Positions 4,319-29,132 of a DNA stretch of 64,000 nucleotides are shown here, piece by piece. The stretch lies in IMG/VR virus record IMGVR_UViG_3300036762_000065, positions 160,001-224,000 of that record. One strand, 5' to 3'. The notes under the pieces were generated by a model. The model saw only the letters and a list, made by a program, of their open reading frames with translations. It did no database searches and was not told the origin of the DNA. The translations under genes were made by a program, and so were the position numbers. Position 1 is the stretch's first letter, and each line of letters begins with the position of its first letter. This DNA comes from a virus (Duplodnaviria; Caudoviricetes).

Positions 4319-5194
4319 ATGTACTTAAGCGGCGAACAACAATACCTTAATCTATGTAGAAGAATACTAGATGAGGGCCACATGATACCAAATGAACGGA
4401 CAGGGAAAGGTTGCTTAACAGTAATCAATGCAGACTTCGAGTATGATTGTTCTGCAAATAAGTTCCCTTTGATTACAACACGTAAGGCTTTCTGGCGTTC
4501 AGCAATAGCAGAGCAGCTAGGATACTTAAGAGGCTTCGACAACGCCCAACAGTTTGCAAACTTAGGCTGTAAAACATGGTTTAGTAATGCAAACGAAACG
4601 AGTGCTTGGTTATCTAATAAGCATAGAAAAGGCGATGATGATATAGGTAGAGCGTACGGTGTTCAGTTGCGTGATTGGCGTAATCCTGAAGGTGAGAGAA
4701 TAGATCAACTACAGAAAGTTGTCGATGTTCTACAAACAGGGTATGATAACCGTAGGTTGATTATGACTTATCACAATCCTGGAGAACTAGATAGGGCAGC
4801 ATTAGATAGTTGTATGCACACCCACCATTTCAGTGTACTGGACAACACATTGTATTTAACAAGTTACCAGCGTTCTATTGACGTACCGTTAGGTCTAGTG
4901 TTCAACATGGTGCAAACGGTATTTCTATTGCGTGTGTTTGCACAGATATGCAACTTGAAGTGCGGTAAAGTTTTCCACAAGCTTGTTAACTGCCACATAT
5001 ATGATGATCAAATAGAGTTGATGCGAGATGTTCAGCTGGTACGGGAACCTTACGCAGAACCTACATTCCACATAAGCGAAGATATTAAAACTCTTAAAGA
5101 TTTGGAGACATGGGTAGATCCTCAAAACAAAGATCATTTCTGGGTTGAAGGTTATCAATATCACGAATCTATAAAATATCCTTTCGCCGCATAG
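4319..5194 (+). CDS. thyA: Thymidylate synthase
   Basis: RTG, FPLITTRK, YGVQLR, RRLI, catalytic Cys (SCMH), YQRSIDVPLGLVFN and HIYD motifs. Confidence 0.97.
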   Translation: MYLSGEQQYLNLCRRILDEGHMIPNERTGKGCLTVINADFEYDCSANKFPLITTRKAFWRSAIAEQLGYLRGFDNAQQFANLGCKTWFSNANETSAWLSNKHRKGDDDIGRAYGVQLRDWRNPEGERIDQLQKVVDVLQTGYDNRRLIMTYHNPGELDRAALDSCMHTHHFSVLDNTLYLTSYQRSIDVPLGLVFNMVQTVFLLRVFAQICNLKCGKVFHKLVNCHIYDDQIELMRDVQLVREPYAEPTFHISEDIKTLKDLETWVDPQNKDHFWVEGYQYHESIKYPFAA

Positions 5195-5210
5195 TGTAAA
5201 GTATATTAAA

Positions 5211-5295
5211 GACTACCCGTGCAGGTAGGAGCTACTCCGATTGTTTTGTTGAGCAATCTTTTGTGAAGGAGCGGTTGAAGTCCGAATCAACTTTT
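5211..5295 (+). ncRNA. Candidate small structured RNA or leader
   Basis: Intergenic. Stems CTACC/GGTAG, CTCC..GATTG/CAATC..GGAG and GTTGA/TCAAC followed by TTTT; preceded by TGTAAA at 5195. Confidence 0.3.
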
Positions 5296-5309
5296 AACAG
5301 ACTGGAGGG

Positions 5310-5814: not shown

Positions 5815-6306
5815 ATGAATAAGAAACAAGCATACACAGAAGCACACAAGGCACTGGATAAAATAGATGATTTATTGTACCGTGCAAGACGAAACCACAG
5901 GCTATATATAATTAGAAAAACTATTAAGCAGTGGTCTAAGGACTTTGTACATAATTGTATTGTTCATCCTTTGATGTGCTTTACGACACTAAAAACAGCG
6001 AACAATATCCATGATCGTAACGCACTGTGGGCTTTCGGACTCAATAAACTAGATGAGTTGAAGTTAGAATCTGAAATAGCTCCGGAAGTTATTTATCAAT
6101 ATAGATGGCGTGATCTTAATCCTAACACTGTAACATACTGTCAGTGGTGTGATTGGACTACTTGCAATGAAGAGGAATACAATAACAGGTTGGGGTTAAT
6201 AATAGAGTGTGATGAACTAGGTTGGTACCAGGTACGTACTCTAATAGTATCAGAAACCCACACTGCACAAAGAATAAAGGATTTTGAGCTTGTATCCTTA
6301 AGATGA
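5815..6306 (+). CDS. Hypothetical protein; C-terminal domain shared with 8410-8883
   Basis: YQYRW...TVTYCQWCDWTTCNEEEYN...YQVRTL. Confidence 0.7.
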   Translation: MNKKQAYTEAHKALDKIDDLLYRARRNHRLYIIRKTIKQWSKDFVHNCIVHPLMCFTTLKTANNIHDRNALWAFGLNKLDELKLESEIAPEVIYQYRWRDLNPNTVTYCQWCDWTTCNEEEYNNRLGLIIECDELGWYQVRTLIVSETHTAQRIKDFELVSLR

Positions 6307-6345
6307 TACTAGATTGTTTCAAGTTTAAAACTAACTACTCAGGGC

Positions 6346-6663
6346 TTGAGAACTATGAAGAGTGAAGGTGTCGTAGATAATGACGAGAAACGACTGGATG
6401 AAGGCAAGTCCGTTCAAGATCGACTTGTTATGCGCGGTAATTGGATTGCCGCAGAAGACAAGTTGCCACCACCCGAAACACCCGTGTTAGCTTTTGTACA
6501 TGGCATAGACATACCCATAGTTTTAGAAATGAGATGGGAAACCTGCAACCCAATGGTTGAACCATATTTTAATGATTTTCTTTATTGGGATAACCCTCAT
6601 GACGATGGGCAAAATTATGAAGACAGGGTATTTGCATGGCAACCACTACCAGAAGACCCTTGA
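6346..6663 (+). CDS. DUF551-like phage protein
   Basis: WI...DKLP....PVL and VFAWQPLPEDP motifs. Confidence 0.75.
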   Translation: MRTMKSEGVVDNDEKRLDEGKSVQDRLVMRGNWIAAEDKLPPPETPVLAFVHGIDIPIVLEMRWETCNPMVEPYFNDFLYWDNPHDDGQNYEDRVFAWQPLPEDP

Positions 6664-6666
6664 TAC

Positions 6667-6714
6667 ACATAACCACAAGCACAACGGCTAGTCCGTTGAT
6701 GAGTAGGGTTAAGT
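6667..6714. mobile_element. attC-like site A
   Basis: ACATAAC-N6-CACAACGG...CCGTTG(A)TG-N6-GTTAAGT: inverted core boxes and an inner stem with one extrahelical base. Confidence 0.55.
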
Positions 6715-7003
6715 GTAAGTTTTGGAAGGTAGGCTTAGAAGCAGCCATCCTTTAAAGAGTGGGGTCTTTGCTCCTTGTGACATGTAACTACCTGGAGCGT
6801 TTTTGTAAGGTAGTGAAAGTTGAACCAACCGCTGACTTTGATCAGAGTTATGTTGGGTAGACAAGTTGCGTGGAGGATAACGCCAAAGAGCTAGTAAGAA
6901 CCTGTGAAATGACATGGGCATAGCGTGAGTTGGAGCGGTAAAAGTCGTACCCAACCTAACAGTCCCTTTAGCGTAACAGCACACCAGAACTTACACCTAA
7001 TTT
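6706..7003 (+). ncRNA. Structured RNA containing a split mimic of the 23S rRNA uL11-binding domain (H43-H44)
   Basis: 6721-6760 aligns without gaps to E. coli 23S nt 1051-1090 and 6971-6988 to nt 1091-1108, with compensatory changes. Closing helix 6713-6725/6984-6996; structured 210-nt insert. Confidence 0.85.
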
Positions 7004-7018
7004 AACTAGGAGATAGCC

Positions 7019-7216
7019 ATGTTTTCAGAAGACGATTTGATTAATGTATGCGTCTACCCAGACGGTACACAAAGCCACAAGCCCCTGCCAGAGAAAGGGG
7101 ATGATTATGAATGGAGGCGCACCATTTACTGTGCGAGGTGCAACTCAGTATTGAGATTGCACCCCGAAGAGCCATTCGCTTCATGTGGATGCGGCACAAC
7201 GGAGTGGTACAAATGA
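7019..7216 (+). CDS. Small Zn-ribbon protein
   Basis: AGGAG RBS; CARC...CGC. Confidence 0.65.
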   Translation: MFSEDDLINVCVYPDGTQSHKPLPEKGDDYEWRRTIYCARCNSVLRLHPEEPFASCGCGTTEWYK

Positions 7217-7244
7217 ATATAACTGATATGACAATAATCGGCGC

Positions 7245-7377
7245 GTATAACCCTGAGCACACCGGAGCTTTCGCTATGACAGATATGGATAAATACACAA
7301 AGCCAATTTATGACGGACACTACGCCGCAGTGAAAAAGCTGGACGCGAAAGCGTCCGAGTGCTGCGACTTGTTAGTG
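7245..7377. mobile_element. attC-like site B (long terminal loop containing a start codon)
   Basis: GTATAAC-N6-CACACCGG-aGCTTTCGC....GCGAAAGC-gtCCG(A)GTG(C)TG-N6-GTTAGTG. Confidence 0.65.
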
Positions 7378-7590
7378 TGCCCATTTTGCGGCGGAGAGCC
7401 AGAACTTGATACGAGCAGATACTACAAGCCGATTGTTGGTAGCGATGTACATAAGAGCGTTTCGGTTTATTGCACAAGCGAAACCGGCTGCCCTGCAGAG
7501 ATGATGTTTTGTTACGCAGACTTCCCAGATTTTACGGTTGAGCAGCTGGCTGATTTAGCAAAAGAGTTTTGGAACAAGCGAGCACACTAA
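7276..7590 (+). CDS. Lar-family restriction alleviation protein
   Basis: LLVCPFCGGEPEL...VYC....CPA...FWNKRA. The start is likely the ATG at 7276 (GGAG RBS at 7264) or 7213, not 7111. Confidence 0.8.
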   Translation: MTDMDKYTKPIYDGHYAAVKKLDAKASECCDLLVCPFCGGEPELDTSRYYKPIVGSDVHKSVSVYCTSETGCPAEMMFCYADFPDFTVEQLADLAKEFWNKRAH

Positions 7591-7641
7591 CCTTTTGCAC
7601 AGTGGCAAGCGTAGCGCGTCCACTGATGCTAGTTGTTATGC
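7585..7641. mobile_element. attC-like site C
   Basis: CACTAAC-N5-GCACAGTGG...CCACTG(A)TGC-N5-GTTATGC, 57 nt; the Lar stop codon lies inside the CACTAAC box. Confidence 0.7.
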
Positions 7642-7671
7642 GCTACATTACCTACAGAGTGAGAAATTAGA

Positions 7672-7968
7672 ATGACTGAACAAGCTATTGAGAAAGAAAT
7701 ACAAGAAAAGAACTTAAACGCACCGCGCTTAACGCCTGACTTGATTGATGCGGCAATTAAAGAAGAGGACTACCACGTTTTTGAAAATACATGCTTAACA
7801 GTGTGTTGCCTGACATTACGCAACGGCTTTACTGTAACGGGTGAAAGCGCGTGTGCAAGCCCTGAAAACTTTGATGCTGAAATAGGTCGAAAGATTGCGC
7901 GTGATAATGCACGCAATAAGATTTGGATGCTTGAAGGCTATTTACTTAAAGAAAGACTAGCGAATTGA
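7672..7968 (+). CDS. Phage Gp49/Sf6-gp66 family protein (possible cyclic-nucleotide sponge)
   Basis: APRLTP, LTVCCLTLRNGFTVTGESACASPENFDAEIGRKIA and IW.LEGYLL signature. Confidence 0.85.
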   Translation: MTEQAIEKEIQEKNLNAPRLTPDLIDAAIKEEDYHVFENTCLTVCCLTLRNGFTVTGESACASPENFDAEIGRKIARDNARNKIWMLEGYLLKERLAN

Positions 7969-7993
7969 TAAAATTGCGCTGCTTACACAGGGC

Positions 7994-8051
7994 GCATAAC
8001 ACAGTATTAGACGGCTACGTCTTTGTAGTCCGTTGATGCGGGTTGTTATGT
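7994..8051. mobile_element. attC-like site D
   Basis: GCATAAC...GACGG-CTAC..GTAG-tCCGTTGATG-N6-GTTATGT, 58 nt; shares GTCCGTTGATG with site A. Confidence 0.6.
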
Positions 8052-8075
8052 GATTATTAATTTAGGAGGTGAATT

Positions 8076-8198
8076 ATGTTCGATGTTGACAATTTAGAGA
8101 AAAGAATCGAGAAACTTGAAGAAGCTATTTTAGACTTGACTAACGAAAACGCAAAAATGAAAGCGTTATTAGAAAATATTATAGCAGCACTAATCTAA
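8076..8198 (+). CDS. 40-aa coiled-coil peptide
   Basis: AGGAGGT RBS; MFDVDNLEKRIEKLEEAILDLTNENAKMKALLENIIAALI. Confidence 0.6.
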   Translation: MFDVDNLEKRIEKLEEAILDLTNENAKMKALLENIIAALI

Positions 8199-8210
8199 TT
8201 TGGAGGATAT

Positions 8211-8315
8211 ATGAGTATTCAATGGGTTCGTGGTCACAGTGGTAACGCAGGTAACGAAATTGCAGATAAACTATGTGGTGATGCTGCAAGGGCACTTAGA
8301 GATAGAACCTTGTAA
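8211..8315 (+). pseudogene. RNase HI C-terminal fragment as a 34-aa mini-ORF
   Basis: GGAGG RBS; MSIQWVRGHSGNAGNEIADKLCGDAARALRDRTL matches the RNase HI WV.GH.G..GNE.AD.L motif. Confidence 0.75.
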
Positions 8316-8409
8316 ATAACAATTAAGTATAGGAGGAATAATATGCAACCTATTTTATTTATAGTAATAAATGTAACCATATACGATGTACTGAACAAGG
8401 AACTTTATA

Positions 8410-8883
8410 ATGCATAACTATGACCTTAACATAACAAATAATCAGTTACAGGTAATTGAATTTACAGTGCAGTTTTTTGAATTTGTTCATAAGTTTAGTA
8501 TAGAAACAAAGGCAAATATGACAGGGCTTGATATCATCAATTGGGCACTTGATGAGGTCTACGTGAATTTACCTATGACAGATGACCAACAACAATTGTC
8601 ATATATAAATTTTATAGGTCCTGAAGGGGAGCTAACTGTAGCAGACGATGACAATGAAGGTAGGGCTTGGTTAGGTCGTATGGTTACTGAAGTACGTATT
8701 ATTAGCCAGGTAAGTGATAAAGGTATAGCTTATAGACACCGCTATAAAGAATCTAATGAACACACGGTTAATTTCGGTCAATGGTCTGATTGGGAATACT
8801 GTGATGAAGATAAATATAATGAAATTTGTGCTTATATAAAGTCCGGGTATACGTACGAAGCTCAGAGGTTAGTATCCGGATAA
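8410..8883 (+). CDS. Hypothetical protein
   Basis: AAGGA RBS; C-terminal domain resembles that of 5815-6306. Confidence 0.65.
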   Translation: MHNYDLNITNNQLQVIEFTVQFFEFVHKFSIETKANMTGLDIINWALDEVYVNLPMTDDQQQLSYINFIGPEGELTVADDDNEGRAWLGRMVTEVRIISQVSDKGIAYRHRYKESNEHTVNFGQWSDWEYCDEDKYNEICAYIKSGYTYEAQRLVSG

Positions 8884-9437: not shown

Positions 9438-10001
9438 ATGAGAATAAATATAATAGCAGCAGTCTCCATAAACGGAATTATAGGACATGACGGAAGATTG
9501 CCTTGGAAGTTGAAGGCAGATATGGAATTCTTCAAAAAGATGACGTCCAACAAGATTGTCATAATGGGCAGAAAAACATTTGAATCAATAGGACGAGCTT
9601 TGCCTAATAGAGTTAATATTGTTATAACTTCGGATCCTACTTGTGGACAAGATTGTGATATTTTAAATGCGTCTGATTTTACAAGCGCATTAGAATTGGC
9701 TGCAATTTGTATAGAGCAGAATAAAGACGAGGAAGGCATAGATTACGAGGACGTATTTATAATAGGTGGAAGTAGTGTATACGAACAAGCCTTAGACGTT
9801 GCAGACCGTATGTATATAACACAAGTGCATGAGATTGTTGAAGGTACTGTACGATTCCCGTCTATTGATACCCATAAATGGAATAAAGATACACTGCTTA
9901 ACTCGAAAAAATGCAATGATAACGAATATGATTTTTCTATAGTGCAGATGGATAAGATCAAAGCTCCTTCTTACATTTATTCCAGAAGTTGTTGCAACTA
10001 A
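9438..10001 (+). CDS. folA: Dihydrofolate reductase
   Basis: IG.DGRLPW...DM.FFK, IMGRKTFESI, LPNR.NIV and IIGGS.VY motifs. Confidence 0.97.
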   Translation: MRINIIAAVSINGIIGHDGRLPWKLKADMEFFKKMTSNKIVIMGRKTFESIGRALPNRVNIVITSDPTCGQDCDILNASDFTSALELAAICIEQNKDEEGIDYEDVFIIGGSSVYEQALDVADRMYITQVHEIVEGTVRFPSIDTHKWNKDTLLNSKKCNDNEYDFSIVQMDKIKAPSYIYSRSCCN

Positions 10002-27499: not shown

Positions 27500-29132
27500 T
27501 GAGATTTATCCTTCTTTTTGCCTCTCTCAGCACATCGTCAACTTCTTGCAAGGTATTCAATTTCTGCCTTAATATTAGTTTTGTTATAAAACTAAAGGTT
27601 TCGTCTATTGTCTTCCTGCCTTTAAAATAAAATTCAAATAGTGTTTGCATCTCCCTTGCTAGATCATTAAACACTTGATCGTGCTTCCCAGACAGGTTAG
27701 CGTAACTACGTGCATAGTGCAGTTCCTTCAAAGGTTCAATACCTCTAACCAATGTTGTGATTTCCCGTTTAAACGCGGGTAATTTCATAAATAAGCTGTC
27801 AGGAGTGTCTTGCCAGAATTTAAACAGATACGCCCTATCGGCCTCTGTAAGCACATCTAACACAGACTCCTTTAGTAACCCGGAGGACGCGGATTTCTTG
27901 TATTCAGGCATTCCACTATTTAACATAACTATGGTTGCAAATCTCAAAAAAGACAAGACTCTAACTTTTTCAGTGTGTTGAACTATGGATTTTATATTTT
28001 CAGAAACATCCATTGTATCGTGCTTTGGAACTATCTTTTCTGCTATAGTGCCTGTGAGATTTTTAATAATGTCATGTACGCGAGGATTTAATGTAAGATT
28101 AGTAAATTTCTTACGTGTGTTATTCAACGTAAATTTCTTTGTCAGGGAAGGGAACTTAGTTACGAAAGGGTCTCGGGTTTTACCGTAAGCATAGTTCGTG
28201 TAAACACCGTGACCTACTTTGGCACCGTATGCTCCTATTATGTCCTGTATGTGCTCTTTGAACGGAGCGTTTGAATAAACTCCTCTGAACGAATCGTTGT
28301 TATAAACAATTAAAGTATATAAATCAAGGTCTAATTTATCAACAGGCATATCCGCTGTATATTCAGGTACTTCAAACCCTAGAGCATTAAGTCTCTTAAC
28401 AGCCTGTACGAACAAAGGCCCGTGCCCATTACGTATATTATTCTCATCATACTCGGTCTTGCCTTGCTCCACAGCAAGTTTTTTATGATGTAGATGTACC
28501 ATTTCATGAAGAAGCGTATTTACAAGACGCTTCTTGTTTGTAGTAGCGTTTTTACTTATACGTATGGCTTGTTTAAGTATCCTATCTCCCATCCATTCTG
28601 TAAGTGCATTACCTGCTACTTTATATGCATTAATGATAATAAGCTTTGTTTGGACACTCAATACATTATTGAAATACTTTTTGTTTAATAAGTTGAACAA
28701 CCTGTGCAGCTCAGGTCTTGTTACAGGCATGTTGACTTCTGGATAAATCTCGTTTTCTGGAACGTCTTTTGCAGGAACATGCTTTCTAGGTACTAAAGTG
28801 CTCTTCTTGGCAGGAACAAAACGCGCACGTATATTTTGAGGATCAAGACCGCCTGCACCTTTCTTGACATTAGTGCCGTTAACTTTCCCACCGAATCCTT
28901 TAGACTTCTTTATAAGAAAAGAAGCTTCTTTTTCTGTCAGAGTAAATAAAACGCTCACATCGGCAGAGTCAATCAACTTGAAGTTTGAACCTACTTTACG
29001 TATACCAAACTTATCTTTGGGTTCCAAATTTAGATCGTATTTACTGTGATGATTTTCAAAAGATTTTTTACGACCGTAGTATGTGAACCATTCATACAGT
29101 TCTACTTTAGCGGCAGATATGGACACAAGCAT
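27492..29132 (-). CDS. SprT-like zinc metalloprotease domain protein
   Basis: F..LN.KYF, TLLHEMVH and HGP.F motifs. Confidence 0.8.
   Translation of the reverse strand: MLVSISAAKVELYEWFTYYGRKKSFENHHSKYDLNLEPKDKFGIRKVGSNFKLIDSADVSVLFTLTEKEASFLIKKSKGFGGKVNGTNVKKGAGGLDPQNIRARFVPAKKSTLVPRKHVPAKDVPENEIYPEVNMPVTRPELHRLFNLLNKKYFNNVLSVQTKLIIINAYKVAGNALTEWMGDRILKQAIRISKNATTNKKRLVNTLLHEMVHLHHKKLAVEQGKTEYDENNIRNGHGPLFVQAVKRLNALGFEVPEYTADMPVDKLDLDLYTLIVYNNDSFRGVYSNAPFKEHIQDIIGAYGAKVGHGVYTNYAYGKTRDPFVTKFPSLTKKFTLNNTRKKFTNLTLNPRVHDIIKNLTGTIAEKIVPKHDTMDVSENIKSIVQHTEKVRVLSFLRFATIVMLNSGMPEYKKSASSGLLKESVLDVLTEADRAYLFKFWQDTPDSLFMKLPAFKREITTLVRGIEPLKELHYARSYANLSGKHDQVFNDLAREMQTLFEFYFKGRKTIDETFSFITKLILRQKLNTLQEVDDVLREAKRRINLNA

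What the first reader, a model, noticed from the sequence alone, without database searches (positions are those of the whole stretch)
6408..8051. Integron-cassette-like array in a phage: genes bounded by reversed attC-like sites with matching cassette ends
Seen: four fold-back sites (6667-6714, 7245-7377, 7585-7641, 7994-8051) plus a right half-site (6408-6433). Each has a ..TAAC box, 5-6 nt spacer, inner stem, 5-6 nt spacer and GTTA.. box. Sites A-C have extrahelical bases on the right arm, i.e. reversed relative to canonical attC/gene orientation; D pairs less cleanly. Two units have self-complementary ends, the hallmark of circularisable cassettes: GTTAGTGTGC (7371-7380) with GCACACTAAC (7582-7591) around the Lar-like gene, and GTTATGCGC (7635-7643) with GCGCATAAC (7992-8000) around the Gp49-family gene. 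The stretch looks more GC-rich than its flanks. Established: this layout defines the attC substrates of integron integrases. No IntI is in the window. Inference: the phage acquires or shuffles accessory genes as cassettes using a host or distant recombinase.
Basis: partly seen in the sequence, partly recalled or inferred. Interest (0 to 1): 0.85.

Follow-up and report, generated by a model that had tools for sequence, protein, structure and literature searches.

The report
Integron-type gene cassette array in phage
A 242-kb uncultured phage carries a short row of swappable gene cassettes separated by genuine integron-type (attC) recombination hairpins but has no integrase of its own. A sister phage lacks four of these cassettes, cut exactly at the hairpins; this kind of element was first published for phages in 2023.

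Summary
Window 6327-8052 holds five attC-type sites on the + strand: a degenerate long site 0, then A, long site B, C and D.

- **Site identity.** A covariance model built only from sites outside the window finds C, D, B and A as its four best hits in the 64 kb. Its training set includes the IntI1-validated attC sites of Pseudoalteromonas phage PH101. A second model, built only from bacterial attC sites beside integron-integrase genes, finds C and B significantly, D marginally and A not at all.
- **Mobility.** The Gp49-family cassette occurs with its upstream hairpin in four other contexts and the Lar cassette in one. Sequence identity breaks at the TAAC box, except at the 3' end of the Lar copy.
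- **Precise indel.** Related jumbo-phage contigs lack 6674-7994 exactly between the TAAC boxes of sites A and D.
- **Polarity.** The + strand is the attC bottom strand, so the genes run opposite to those in bacterial integrons.
- **Recombinase.** The whole phage encodes no tyrosine or serine recombinase. Use of a host IntI is inferred, not shown.

This is a new member of a published kind: clusters of attC sites lacking an integrase (CALINs) in phages, Qi et al. 2023. This scan has already noted similar inverted phage arrays on other DNA. The window alone has few sites; most of the statistical weight comes from related contigs.

The parts
6327..6435 (+). Site 0: probable degenerate long attC. 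Candidate left box AAACTAAC at 6327-6334; loop holding ATG 6355; intact right arm and GTTATGCGC box at 6403-6435.
   Evidence: The right arm is 93% identical to that of the long site L003:3076-3195. Model scores are only 10.2 and 11.8 bits, not significant. The left part differs between the window and relative L015.
6355..6663 (+). DUF551-family ORF (cassette 1). The Pfam domain starts just after the GTTATGCGC box, and an alternative start is the ATG at 6430 inside that box.
   Evidence: PF04448 at 25.1 bits. Homologous bodies on L116-L119 and L018 all end at TAAC and then diverge.
6666..6715 (+). Site A: short attC-type site (CACATAAC ... GTTAAGTG).
   Evidence: R1 17.6 bits, E 0.14, against 15.0 bits on the - strand. 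DNA fold z -4.4. Not significant with the bacterial model R2 at 9.2 bits. Forms the left edge of the block absent from L015.
6716..7001 (+). Non-coding cargo: a structured-RNA-like element ending in a degenerate box, CACCTAAT.
   Evidence: No ORF and no Rfam hit. 6723-6763 is identical to Pseudomonas phage pf16, where it lies inside a tRNA cluster. A 17-nt complementarity joins 6709-6725 with 6984-7000. L129 aligns over 6720-6984.
7019..7216 (+). 65-aa Cys-rich ORF of no known family, with no hairpin of its own.
   Evidence: ORF list. No Pfam or PHROG hit.
7244..7379 (+). Site B: long attC (CGTATAAC ... GTTAGTGT) with an 89-nt loop that holds GGAG and ATG 7276.
   Evidence: R1 22.0 bits, E 0.014. 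R2 19.4 bits, E 0.006. Identity with L120 starts at this left box.
7276..7590 (+). Lar-family (restriction alleviation) ORF, cassette 4. The open frame also extends upstream to 7213.
   Evidence: PF14354 at 33.1 bits; the domain starts at the GTTAGTGTGC box. 99.7% identical copy in another context, L120.
7583..7642 (+). Site C: attC-type site (ACACTAAC ... GTTATGCG).
   Evidence: R1 52.8 bits, E 1e-9. R2 36.2 bits, E 1e-7. Travels with the downstream gene into four other contexts.
7672..7968 (+). N4 Gp49 / Sf6 gp66 family ORF, cassette 5.
   Evidence: PF13876 at 118.5 bits. Homologues of 95-99% identity lie on many contigs.
7993..8052 (+). Site D: attC-type site (CGCATAAC ... GTTATGTG). It belongs with the DNA to its right.
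   Evidence: R1 23.3 bits, E 0.007, against 11.2 bits on the - strand. R2 13.7 bits, E 0.23. 100% identical in relative L015, where it directly follows the DUF551 gene.
6674..7994 (.). Block of cassettes present in the window and absent from related jumbo-phage contigs L015, L016 and L017.
   Evidence: blastn: window 5838-6673 matches L015 6460-7316, and window 7995-8135 matches L015 7311-7451. The junction reads ...ACATAAC|ACAGTATT....

Best explanation
Window 6327-8052 is a cluster of genuine integron-type attC recombination sites without an integron integrase (a CALIN), lying between the thymidylate synthase and dihydrofolate reductase genes of a complete 241.7-kb phage.

**Anatomy.** Each cassette, read on the + strand, is an attC hairpin followed by its cargo. 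It ends in the outer part of the next TAAC box. The cargoes are a DUF551 protein, a non-coding RNA-like element with a small Cys-rich ORF, a Lar-type anti-restriction protein and an N4 Gp49-family protein.

**Shown.**
- The + strand is the recombinogenic bottom strand.
- The crossover lies in the 5'-AAC-3' of the left box.
- Cassettes have moved between unrelated phage backgrounds.
- A four-unit block was gained or lost precisely at two such boxes.
- The genes lie on the bottom-strand side, the reverse of bacterial integrons.

**Inferred.**
- The folded bottom strand is recognised in single-stranded phage DNA by an integron integrase supplied by the host, because the phage encodes no recombinase of its own.
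- attC x attC recombination excises and inserts cassette circles.
- The array serves as an exchangeable store of accessory, partly anti-defence, genes.
For: **The sites are attC-type**
- The sites belong to the same sequence family as PH101_attC1 and attC2, which IntI1 recombined with attI1 (PMC9892861, Table S3; located in the phage record).
- In 14 sites from outside the window the inner stem covaries: 8 of the 9 inner-stem pairs show changes on both sides; over the whole structure 87% of cells are paired against 73% in shuffles, and 0 of 500 shuffles reach this.
- Model R1, built from those sites, gives C, D, B and A as its four best hits in 64 kb on both strands with filters off. All are on the + strand.
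- R1 found nothing at E<0.1 in 151 kb of other viral loci. In 394 kb of bacterial prophage loci it found hits in only one locus.
- R1 finds arrays beside true integron integrases (TIGR02249 at 406-435 bits).
- Model R2, built only from 17 bacterial sites chosen with R1, scores C at 36.2 bits (E 1e-7) and B at 19.4 bits (E 0.006).

**Polarity**
- In the bacterial integron L113, intI is on the - strand and the R1 hits are on the - strand, each just downstream of a + strand ORF.
- The longest open frame is opposite to the model strand in 13 of 14 bacterial intervals. It is on the same strand in 23 of 27 phage intervals.
- The bulged base is on the 3' arm.

**Mobility**
- The block of site C hairpin plus gene is conserved in the window, L003, L004, L005 and L007. 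Its flanks change at TAAC on both sides.
- The Lar block in L120 starts at the site B left box.
- The DUF551 3' end lies at TAAC in six contexts.
- Relative L015 lacks 6674-7994 box to box.
- Across each cassette the box ends are complementary: 10 of 10 twice in the window, and 43 of 44 outer-box positions in the 12-site array L003, reached by 0 of 20000 permutations.

**Recombinase**
- PF00589 and PF00239 give no match at E<=1 in the whole phage. PF01797 gives only 12.6 bits, below its cut-off.
Against: - No recombination was observed, and the host and its IntI are unknown.
- IntegronFinder's own attC model could not be run.
- Site A is not significant under either model (E 0.14 and 4.2). D is marginal under the bacterial model (E 0.23). 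Site 0 is not significant.
- R2 is only semi-independent, because its training sites were picked with R1.
- The A-to-B interval lacks matching ends (1 of 4 outer positions) and has a hairpin-less junction near 7001.
- The Lar copy in L120 diverges about 10 nt before its TAAC.
- Other indels between the window and its relatives are not at boxes: 8136-8729, with a 5-nt microhomology, and the thyA region.
- The cargo genes are phage-type rather than typical integron cargo, so a non-IntI enzyme is not excluded.
Confidence: 0.75

Rival explanations
1. The sites are recombination sites of attC design, but in phages they are used by a recombinase other than the bacterial integron integrase. That enzyme would be encoded by other phages, by satellites, or by an unrecognised family. 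The inverted gene orientation would then mark a separate, phage-specific system.
For: Gene orientation is inverted in every phage array examined (23 of 27 intervals) and canonical in the bacterial arrays. The cargo is phage-type: DUF551, Lar and N4 Gp49. Arrays occur in very different phages. Earlier notes of this scan report small Xer-like recombinases beside similar arrays in Bacteroidota phages (unchecked here).
Against: This phage has no tyrosine, serine or credible Y1 recombinase. IntI1 recombines the homologous PH101 sites. Models built from phage sites and from bacterial sites find each other's sites. The bulge position and crossover point match IntI chemistry.
Confidence: 0.12
2. The array is a passive relic: a piece of a host chromosomal integron, or of another phage's array, picked up once by illegitimate recombination. 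It no longer exchanges cassettes in this phage lineage.
For: GC is higher than in the rest of the phage. Sites A, D and 0 are degenerate. There is a hairpin-less junction near 7001. Indels not associated with boxes are frequent in this region.
Against: Near relatives (98.9-100% identical in the right flank) differ by a box-to-box block. The Lar cassette (99.7%) and Gp49 cassettes (88% DNA identity with L003; proteins 95-97% identical) occur in other backgrounds. Orientation is the reverse of bacterial arrays, so a simple captured chromosomal piece is unlikely.
Confidence: 0.1
3. The hairpins are mainly RNA-level or transcription signals, such as terminators or stabilisers, comparable to the promoter/stem-loop cassettes of T4-type phages. 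Genes would be shuffled by homologous or microhomology recombination within these conserved intergenic repeats.
For: The hairpins lie on the sense strand, between genes or around start codons. Phage genomes are rich in recombination between short repeats, and the 8136-8729 deletion is one example.
Against: Terminator-like sites are not enriched (3 found against 2.2 expected), and only a marginal one overlaps site C. The invariant AAC/GTT boxes, the one-sided crossover at the left box only, and the 43 of 44 chain complementarity are not expected from homologous exchange. The same model finds integron arrays beside intI.
Confidence: 0.05

Closest known systems
CALINs (clusters of attC sites lacking an integron integrase) in phage genomes, especially Pseudoalteromonas phage PH101/H101 (Qi, Rajabal, Ghaly, Tetu, Gillings 2023, PMC9892861)
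   Same: - Short attC sites of the same sequence family (..ATAAC.. GCGG..AGCGTAGYG..GTCCG.. CTTGTTAT..).
- No IntI in the phage.
- Small single-gene cassettes.
- The designated bottom strand lies on the gene sense strand in PH101 too.
   Different: - The host phage here is an uncultured 242-kb jumbo phage, and the array is not in their list of 21 phages.
- Here there is direct comparative evidence of cassette movement and a box-to-box indel between relatives.
- The parts of that paper I read (sections 2.1, 3.1 and 3.4, the legend passages returned by a term search, and the first of two parts of its supplement) do not mention the inverted gene orientation, ORF starts inside attC loops, or an RNA as cargo.
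Bacterial integrons, including sedentary chromosomal integrons (IntI, attI, Pc, attC-bounded cassettes)
   Same: - R and L boxes with AAC/GTT, an unpaired spacer, extrahelical base(s) on the bottom strand and a variable loop.
- Crossover in the R' box.
- Complementary ends across each cassette.
- Models cross-detect phage and bacterial sites.
   Different: - No intI, attI or Pc here.
- Genes lie on the bottom-strand side, so each cassette reads hairpin then gene; in bacterial arrays it reads gene then hairpin.
- The window sites mostly show one bulged base, where the bacterial consensus shows two.
- The cargo is of phage type.
Off-target cassette insertion by IntI into genomic sites outside att sites (bioRxiv 10.1101/2022.09.11.507474; abstract seen)
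   Same: It offers a route by which a cassette could first enter a phage genome that has no attI. The lone degenerate boxes (CACCTAAT at 6994-7001, and AACATAAC at 8428-8435) could be such junctions.
   Different: It was shown for bacterial genomes. Nothing here tests it.
Promoter-early stem-loop (PeSL) mobile regulatory cassettes of T4-type phages (Arbiol, Comeau, Krisch 2010; recalled from memory, not read here)
   Same: Repeated intergenic stem-loops flank small accessory genes in hyperplastic regions of large phages and are linked to gene shuffling.
   Different: PeSLs combine a promoter with a stem-loop and are thought to act through homologous recombination. The sites here have AAC/GTT boxes, bulged bases, a one-sided crossover and homology to IntI substrates.

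Membership tests
attC recombination site (integron cassette site) | Outer inverted boxes with conserved 5'-AAC ... GTT-3' (R''/R', about RYYYAAC / GTTRRRY) | tested here: met
   All five sites have (N)4TAAC ... GTTA(N)4. TAAC/GTTA is invariant in the 14 training sites.
attC recombination site (integron cassette site) | Layout of R stem, unpaired central spacer, L stem and variable terminal loop, conserved in structure rather than sequence | tested here: met
   Folds. Covariation appears in 8 of the 9 inner-stem pairs, and 0 of 500 shuffles reach the observed pairing. Loops range from 5 to 89 nt. D and site 0 pair poorly.
attC recombination site (integron cassette site) | Extrahelical base(s) on the 3' arm of the recombinogenic bottom strand | tested here: met
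   Bulged A in sites A and C, and bulges in B, on the + strand 3' arm. The aadA7 bottom strand in PMC9892861 Table S3 has its bulged G on the same arm. D is unclear.
attC recombination site (integron cassette site) | Scores with an attC covariance model (IntegronFinder or HattCI+Infernal) | tested here: inconclusive
   The published model is not available. Proxy R1 (phage sites, including validated ones): C 52.8, D 23.3, B 22.0 and A 17.6 bits. Proxy R2 (bacterial sites next to intI): C 36.2, B 19.4, D 13.7 and A 9.2 bits.
attC recombination site (integron cassette site) | Cassette boundaries at the R' crossover, with complementary ends across each cassette | tested here: met
   Flanks change at TAAC. 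Box-to-box indel. 10 of 10 complementary ends twice. 43 of 44 in L003. Not met for the A-to-B interval or for the 3' end of the L120 Lar copy.
attC recombination site (integron cassette site) | Recombined by an integron integrase | not testable with these tools
   Support is by homology only: PH101_attC1 and attC2 of the same family were recombined by IntI1 (PMC9892861).
Complete integron | intI gene with adjacent attI and promoter | tested here: not met
   No PF00589 match at E<=1 in the 241.7-kb genome, while the control genomes all match. It is therefore filed as a CALIN, not an integron.
Canonical bacterial cassette array | ORFs on the attC top strand, with the attC downstream of its ORF | tested here: not met
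   In the window the ORFs are on the model (bottom) strand. Phage arrays: 23 of 27 intervals on the same strand. Bacterial arrays: 13 of 14 on the opposite strand.
CALIN (IntegronFinder definition) | At least two attC sites close together and no integron integrase nearby | tested here: met
   Three sites have E<0.02 within 0.8 kb, and five within 1.7 kb. No integrase is present.

The most novel reading that the evidence does not exclude
Phage attC arrays are not stray pieces of bacterial integrons. They would be a phage-adapted branch of the system with its own cassette pool. Cassettes are built hairpin-first, with genes on the bottom-strand side, start codons sometimes inside the attC loop and stop codons in the TAAC box. 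They can carry RNA genes. They move between unrelated phages (jumbo, lambdoid-like, PH101-like) by borrowing the host integrase during infection. The inverted orientation might place the recombinogenic strand on the non-template strand of heavily transcribed early regions.
Probability: 0.35. Interest if true: 0.8.

Novelty: new member of a known kind. Interest (0 to 1): 0.6.

Why it matters
Integrons are known as bacterial gene-capture devices. Here the same sites structure part of the accessory genome of a large virulent-type phage. Whole cassettes, including an anti-restriction gene, are shared among unrelated phages and gained or lost exactly at the sites.

If host integrases do this during infection, phages and bacteria draw on the same recombination machinery in their arms race, and phages become vehicles for cassettes.

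The uniform inversion of the genes relative to bacterial arrays is a concrete, testable clue that the phage arrays are selected in their own right. The window also gives ready substrates (sites B, C, D) and a natural before-and-after pair (window versus L015) for experiments.

Tried and rejected
- **Close relatives in public phage sets.** megablast and blastn of the region and of 25 kb against INPHARED gave no close relative. The only hits were a 41-nt RNA match and gene-body hits without the sites.
- **Flanking proteins.** Scans of IMG/VR with ORFs 5815-6306 and 8410-8883 found nothing.
- **Rfam.** Gathering and E<=10 thresholds gave no family for the sites or the non-coding stretch.
- **Other motif matches in the genome.** Matches at genome positions 65490, 66072, 29239 and 10588 lie inside coding DNA without the site layout and were rejected as chance.
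- **Bacterial homologues of the Gp49-family gene.** 80 loci at 80% identity or less were found. Of the 69 scanned with R1, only L078 (a Methylobacter MAG) has sites, so this gave no host clue.
- **Chain-complementarity permutation on the window alone.** This had no power with five sites, and one box was mis-set by a model insertion.
- **Terminator reading.** The scan does not support it.
- **Literature.** Searches for attC arrays in jumbo phages and for 'attC-like' sites in phages found nothing beyond PMC9892861.
Full report
**What is in the sequence**

The window lies at 160001-224000 of a complete 241,706-bp IMG/VR virus record with direct terminal repeats. Between a thymidylate synthase gene (4319-5194) and a DHFR gene (9438-10001) sits a 1.7-kb stretch of raised GC, 0.43-0.49 against 0.39 for the genome.

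Each has NNNNTAAC, a 5-6 nt spacer, an inner stem with a bulged base on its 3' arm, a loop of 5 to 89 nt, a second spacer and GTTANNNN. Sites A, C and D share the right arm GTCCRYTGATG...GTT(G/A)TTA.

The family occurs nowhere else in the genome. Other matches to its short motifs lie in coding DNA without the layout. A whole-genome model search returns only this place. Folding energy alone is weak evidence: A and D beat shuffles, C and B do not.

**Are they attC sites?**

Qi et al. 2023 (PMC9892861) ran IntegronFinder and HattCI on 10,705 phage genomes. They reported 17 clusters of attC sites without integrase and showed that IntI1 recombines five of six tested phage attC sites with attI1. Their Table S3 gives the bottom strands. 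PH101_attC1 and attC2 are visibly the same family as the window's sites: the GGCxAxCGTAGYG...GTCCG apex, and the CTTGTTAT right box also seen in site B and the half-site. I located them in the phage record.

- **Model R1.** I aligned 14 sites from outside the window: nine from a metagenomic array (L003), three from PH101 and two others.
  - The inner stem covaries. Eight of its nine pairs change on both sides. Over the whole structure 87% of cells are paired against 73% in shuffles, and 0 of 500 shuffles reach the observed value.
  - Run with filters off over all 64 kb and both strands, R1 gives as its four best hits C (52.8 bits, E 1e-9), D (23.3, E 0.007), B (22.0, E 0.014, with an 89-nt loop insertion) and A (17.6, E 0.14). 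All are on the + strand.
- **Specificity.** R1 found nothing at E<0.1 in 151 kb of other viral loci. In 394 kb of bacterial prophage loci it found four hits, all in one locus.
- **Link to bacterial integrons.**
  - In a sample of 151 Gammaproteobacteria, R1 hit 16 genomes.
  - Of five genomes with R1 hits that I checked (four from this sample, one reached earlier), three carry integron integrases above the TIGR02249 cut-off (406-435 bits). The R1 hits form arrays beside them or beside intI fragments.
- **Model R2.** This model was built only from 17 such bacterial sites. They were selected with R1, so it is only semi-independent. It scores C at 36.2 bits (E 1e-7), B at 19.4 (E 0.006), D at 13.7 (E 0.23), site 0 at 11.8 (E 0.8) and A at 9.2 (not significant).

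C and B are therefore solid, D is fair, and A and site 0 rest mainly on layout, position and homology.

**Polarity**

Three independent lines make the + strand the attC bottom strand.

- The bulged base is on the 3' arm, as in the aadA7 bottom strand printed by Qi et al..
- The + strand is co-linear with the PH101 strands that Qi et al. designated bottom strands. They report that bottom strands recombined more often than top strands.
- In bacterial locus L113, a complete intI lies on the - strand. The R1 hits are also on the - strand, each just downstream of a + strand ORF, which is the canonical arrangement.

Counting the longest open frame between neighbouring sites gives a clear contrast. 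It is opposite to the model strand in 13 of 14 bacterial intervals. It is on the same strand in 23 of 27 phage intervals (window 3 of 4, L003 10 of 11, L018 8 of 9, PH101 2 of 3).

**Mobility**

- **Gp49-family cassette.** This protein has 95-99% identical homologues on many metagenome contigs. In L003, L004, L005 and L007 (L011 and L012 repeat the L007 context), as in the window, the conserved block runs from just after the TAAC of site C, through the hairpin, GTTATGCGC, the ribosome-binding site and the gene, to GGGCGCATAAC. Beyond both TAAC boxes the sequences are unrelated. The unit is therefore the hairpin plus its downstream gene, and the crossover lies in the left box. That corresponds to G|TT of R' on the - strand.
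- **Lar cassette.** It recurs at 99.7% identity in L120 and starts at the left box of site B. Its 3' end diverges about 10 nt before the TAAC, which is an exception.
- **DUF551 gene.** Its 3' end lies at TAAC, followed by different sequence, in six contexts.
- **Chain complementarity.** In the 12-site array L003, the outer four bases of each right box are complementary to those of the next left box at 43 of 44 positions. Within single sites the figure is 30 of 48. None of 20000 permutations reach 43. In the window the B-to-C and C-to-D pairs are perfect over 10 nt. This is the footprint of circular cassettes opened at a fixed bond.
- **Box-to-box indel.** Contigs L015-L017 come from related jumbo phages with the same gene order, found through a 95% identical DUF551 protein; one contig carrying that protein is 246.6 kb long.
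  - Window 5838-6673 aligns to L015 6460-7316 at 85% identity. Window 7995-8135 aligns to L015 7311-7451 at 100% identity.
- The relatives therefore lack 6674-7994, and their junction reads ...ACATAAC|ACAGTATT....
  - The left box of A (CACATAAC) is the exact complement of the right box of D (GTTATGTG). That fits insertion of the block into a formerly single site, but deletion is equally possible.

**Anatomy of the array**

- **Site 0 (about 6327-6435).** A long, degenerate site whose loop holds ATG 6355. Its right arm matches the long site L003:3076-3195, which likewise holds a ribosome-binding site and an ATG in its loop.
- **Cassette 1.** Carries the DUF551 gene.
- **Site A and the non-coding stretch 6716-7001.** This stretch ends in a degenerate box (CACCTAAT) and is followed by a 65-aa Cys-rich ORF with no hairpin of its own. 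This interval lacks matching ends and is probably rearranged.
- **Site B.** A long site with GGAG and ATG 7276 in its loop, so the Lar ORF probably starts there. The open frame also extends upstream to 7213.
- **Site C.** Precedes the Gp49-family gene.
- **Site D.** Belongs with the DNA to its right. A possible lone end box, AACATAAC at 8428-8435, is unproven.
- **Stop codons.** In L003, the gene preceding a site usually ends with the TAA of that site's TAAC box.

**Recombinase**

The whole phage has no match to the tyrosine-recombinase family PF00589 or to resolvase PF00239 at E<=1. It has only a sub-threshold 12.6-bit match to Y1 transposases. Use of a host IntI is therefore an inference from site homology and chemistry. 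The host is unknown.

Terminator-like sites are not enriched. Other indels between the window and its relatives are not box-associated, so this region also rearranges by ordinary illegitimate recombination.

**Novelty**

The kind is published (PMC9892861), and the closest validated sites belong to the same family, so this is a new member of a known kind. In the parts of that paper I read and in the literature searches, I did not find the following described:

- the uniform inversion of genes relative to attC polarity;
- cassette sharing among unrelated phages;
- a box-to-box indel between sister phages;
- ORF starts inside attC loops;
- an RNA-like cargo.

This scan has noted inverted phage attC arrays on other DNA before. 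I reached the orientation result independently and tested it here.

Noticed in passing
window 6716-7001: A non-coding, structured-RNA-like element sits as cargo inside the array. 6723-6763 is 100% identical to Pseudomonas phage pf16 and 97.5% to UNO-G1W1, in both cases inside unannotated gaps of tRNA clusters. Its 30-nt core occurs on 15 IMG/VR contigs, and R1 found no attC-type site in the 14 of these loci that were scanned. One 270-kb contig (L129) aligns over 6720-6984. Another note of this scan reads it as a mimic of the 23S rRNA GTPase-associated centre; I did not test that.
   Followed up: partly
window 8211-8315: A 34-aa ORF matches only the last 26 positions of the RNase H family (PF00075, 28.4 bits). 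It is a gene remnant just right of the array.
   Followed up: no
window 8136-8729 versus L015 7444-7451: Related phages carry a 594-bp deletion that joins the 40-aa ORF to the 3' part of ORF 8410-8883 at a 5-nt microhomology (TAGAC). It is not associated with any attC box.
   Followed up: partly
window 5815-6306 and 8410-8883: The two ORFs flanking the array share a 44-residue C-terminal segment (36% identity, E 1e-9) with the motif W-DW--C-E--YN.
   Followed up: partly
window 4321-5306 versus L015 4778-4787 and 5234-6400: The thymidylate synthase gene differs in place and type between sister phages. The window has a 291-aa gene (58% identical to siphovirus-type Vibrio phages) where the relatives have about 9 nt. 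The relatives have a 388-aa gene about 0.5 kb further on. No attC boxes lie at these junctions.
   Followed up: partly
L003:1-4100 and L018:1500-5330: Two unrelated metagenomic phage contigs carry 12-site and 10-site attC arrays, all on the gene sense strand. One is an 18.7-kb lambdoid-like contig with NinG and DUF1367; the other is 93 kb. In L003 the stop codons often fall in the TAAC box, and one long site holds a start codon in its loop.
   Followed up: partly
L014:26516-26597 and 27918-27999 (Pseudoalteromonas phage H101): PH101_attC2, together with the leader of the downstream gene, is present twice about 1.4 kb apart. This suggests a duplicated cassette in that published phage.
   Followed up: no
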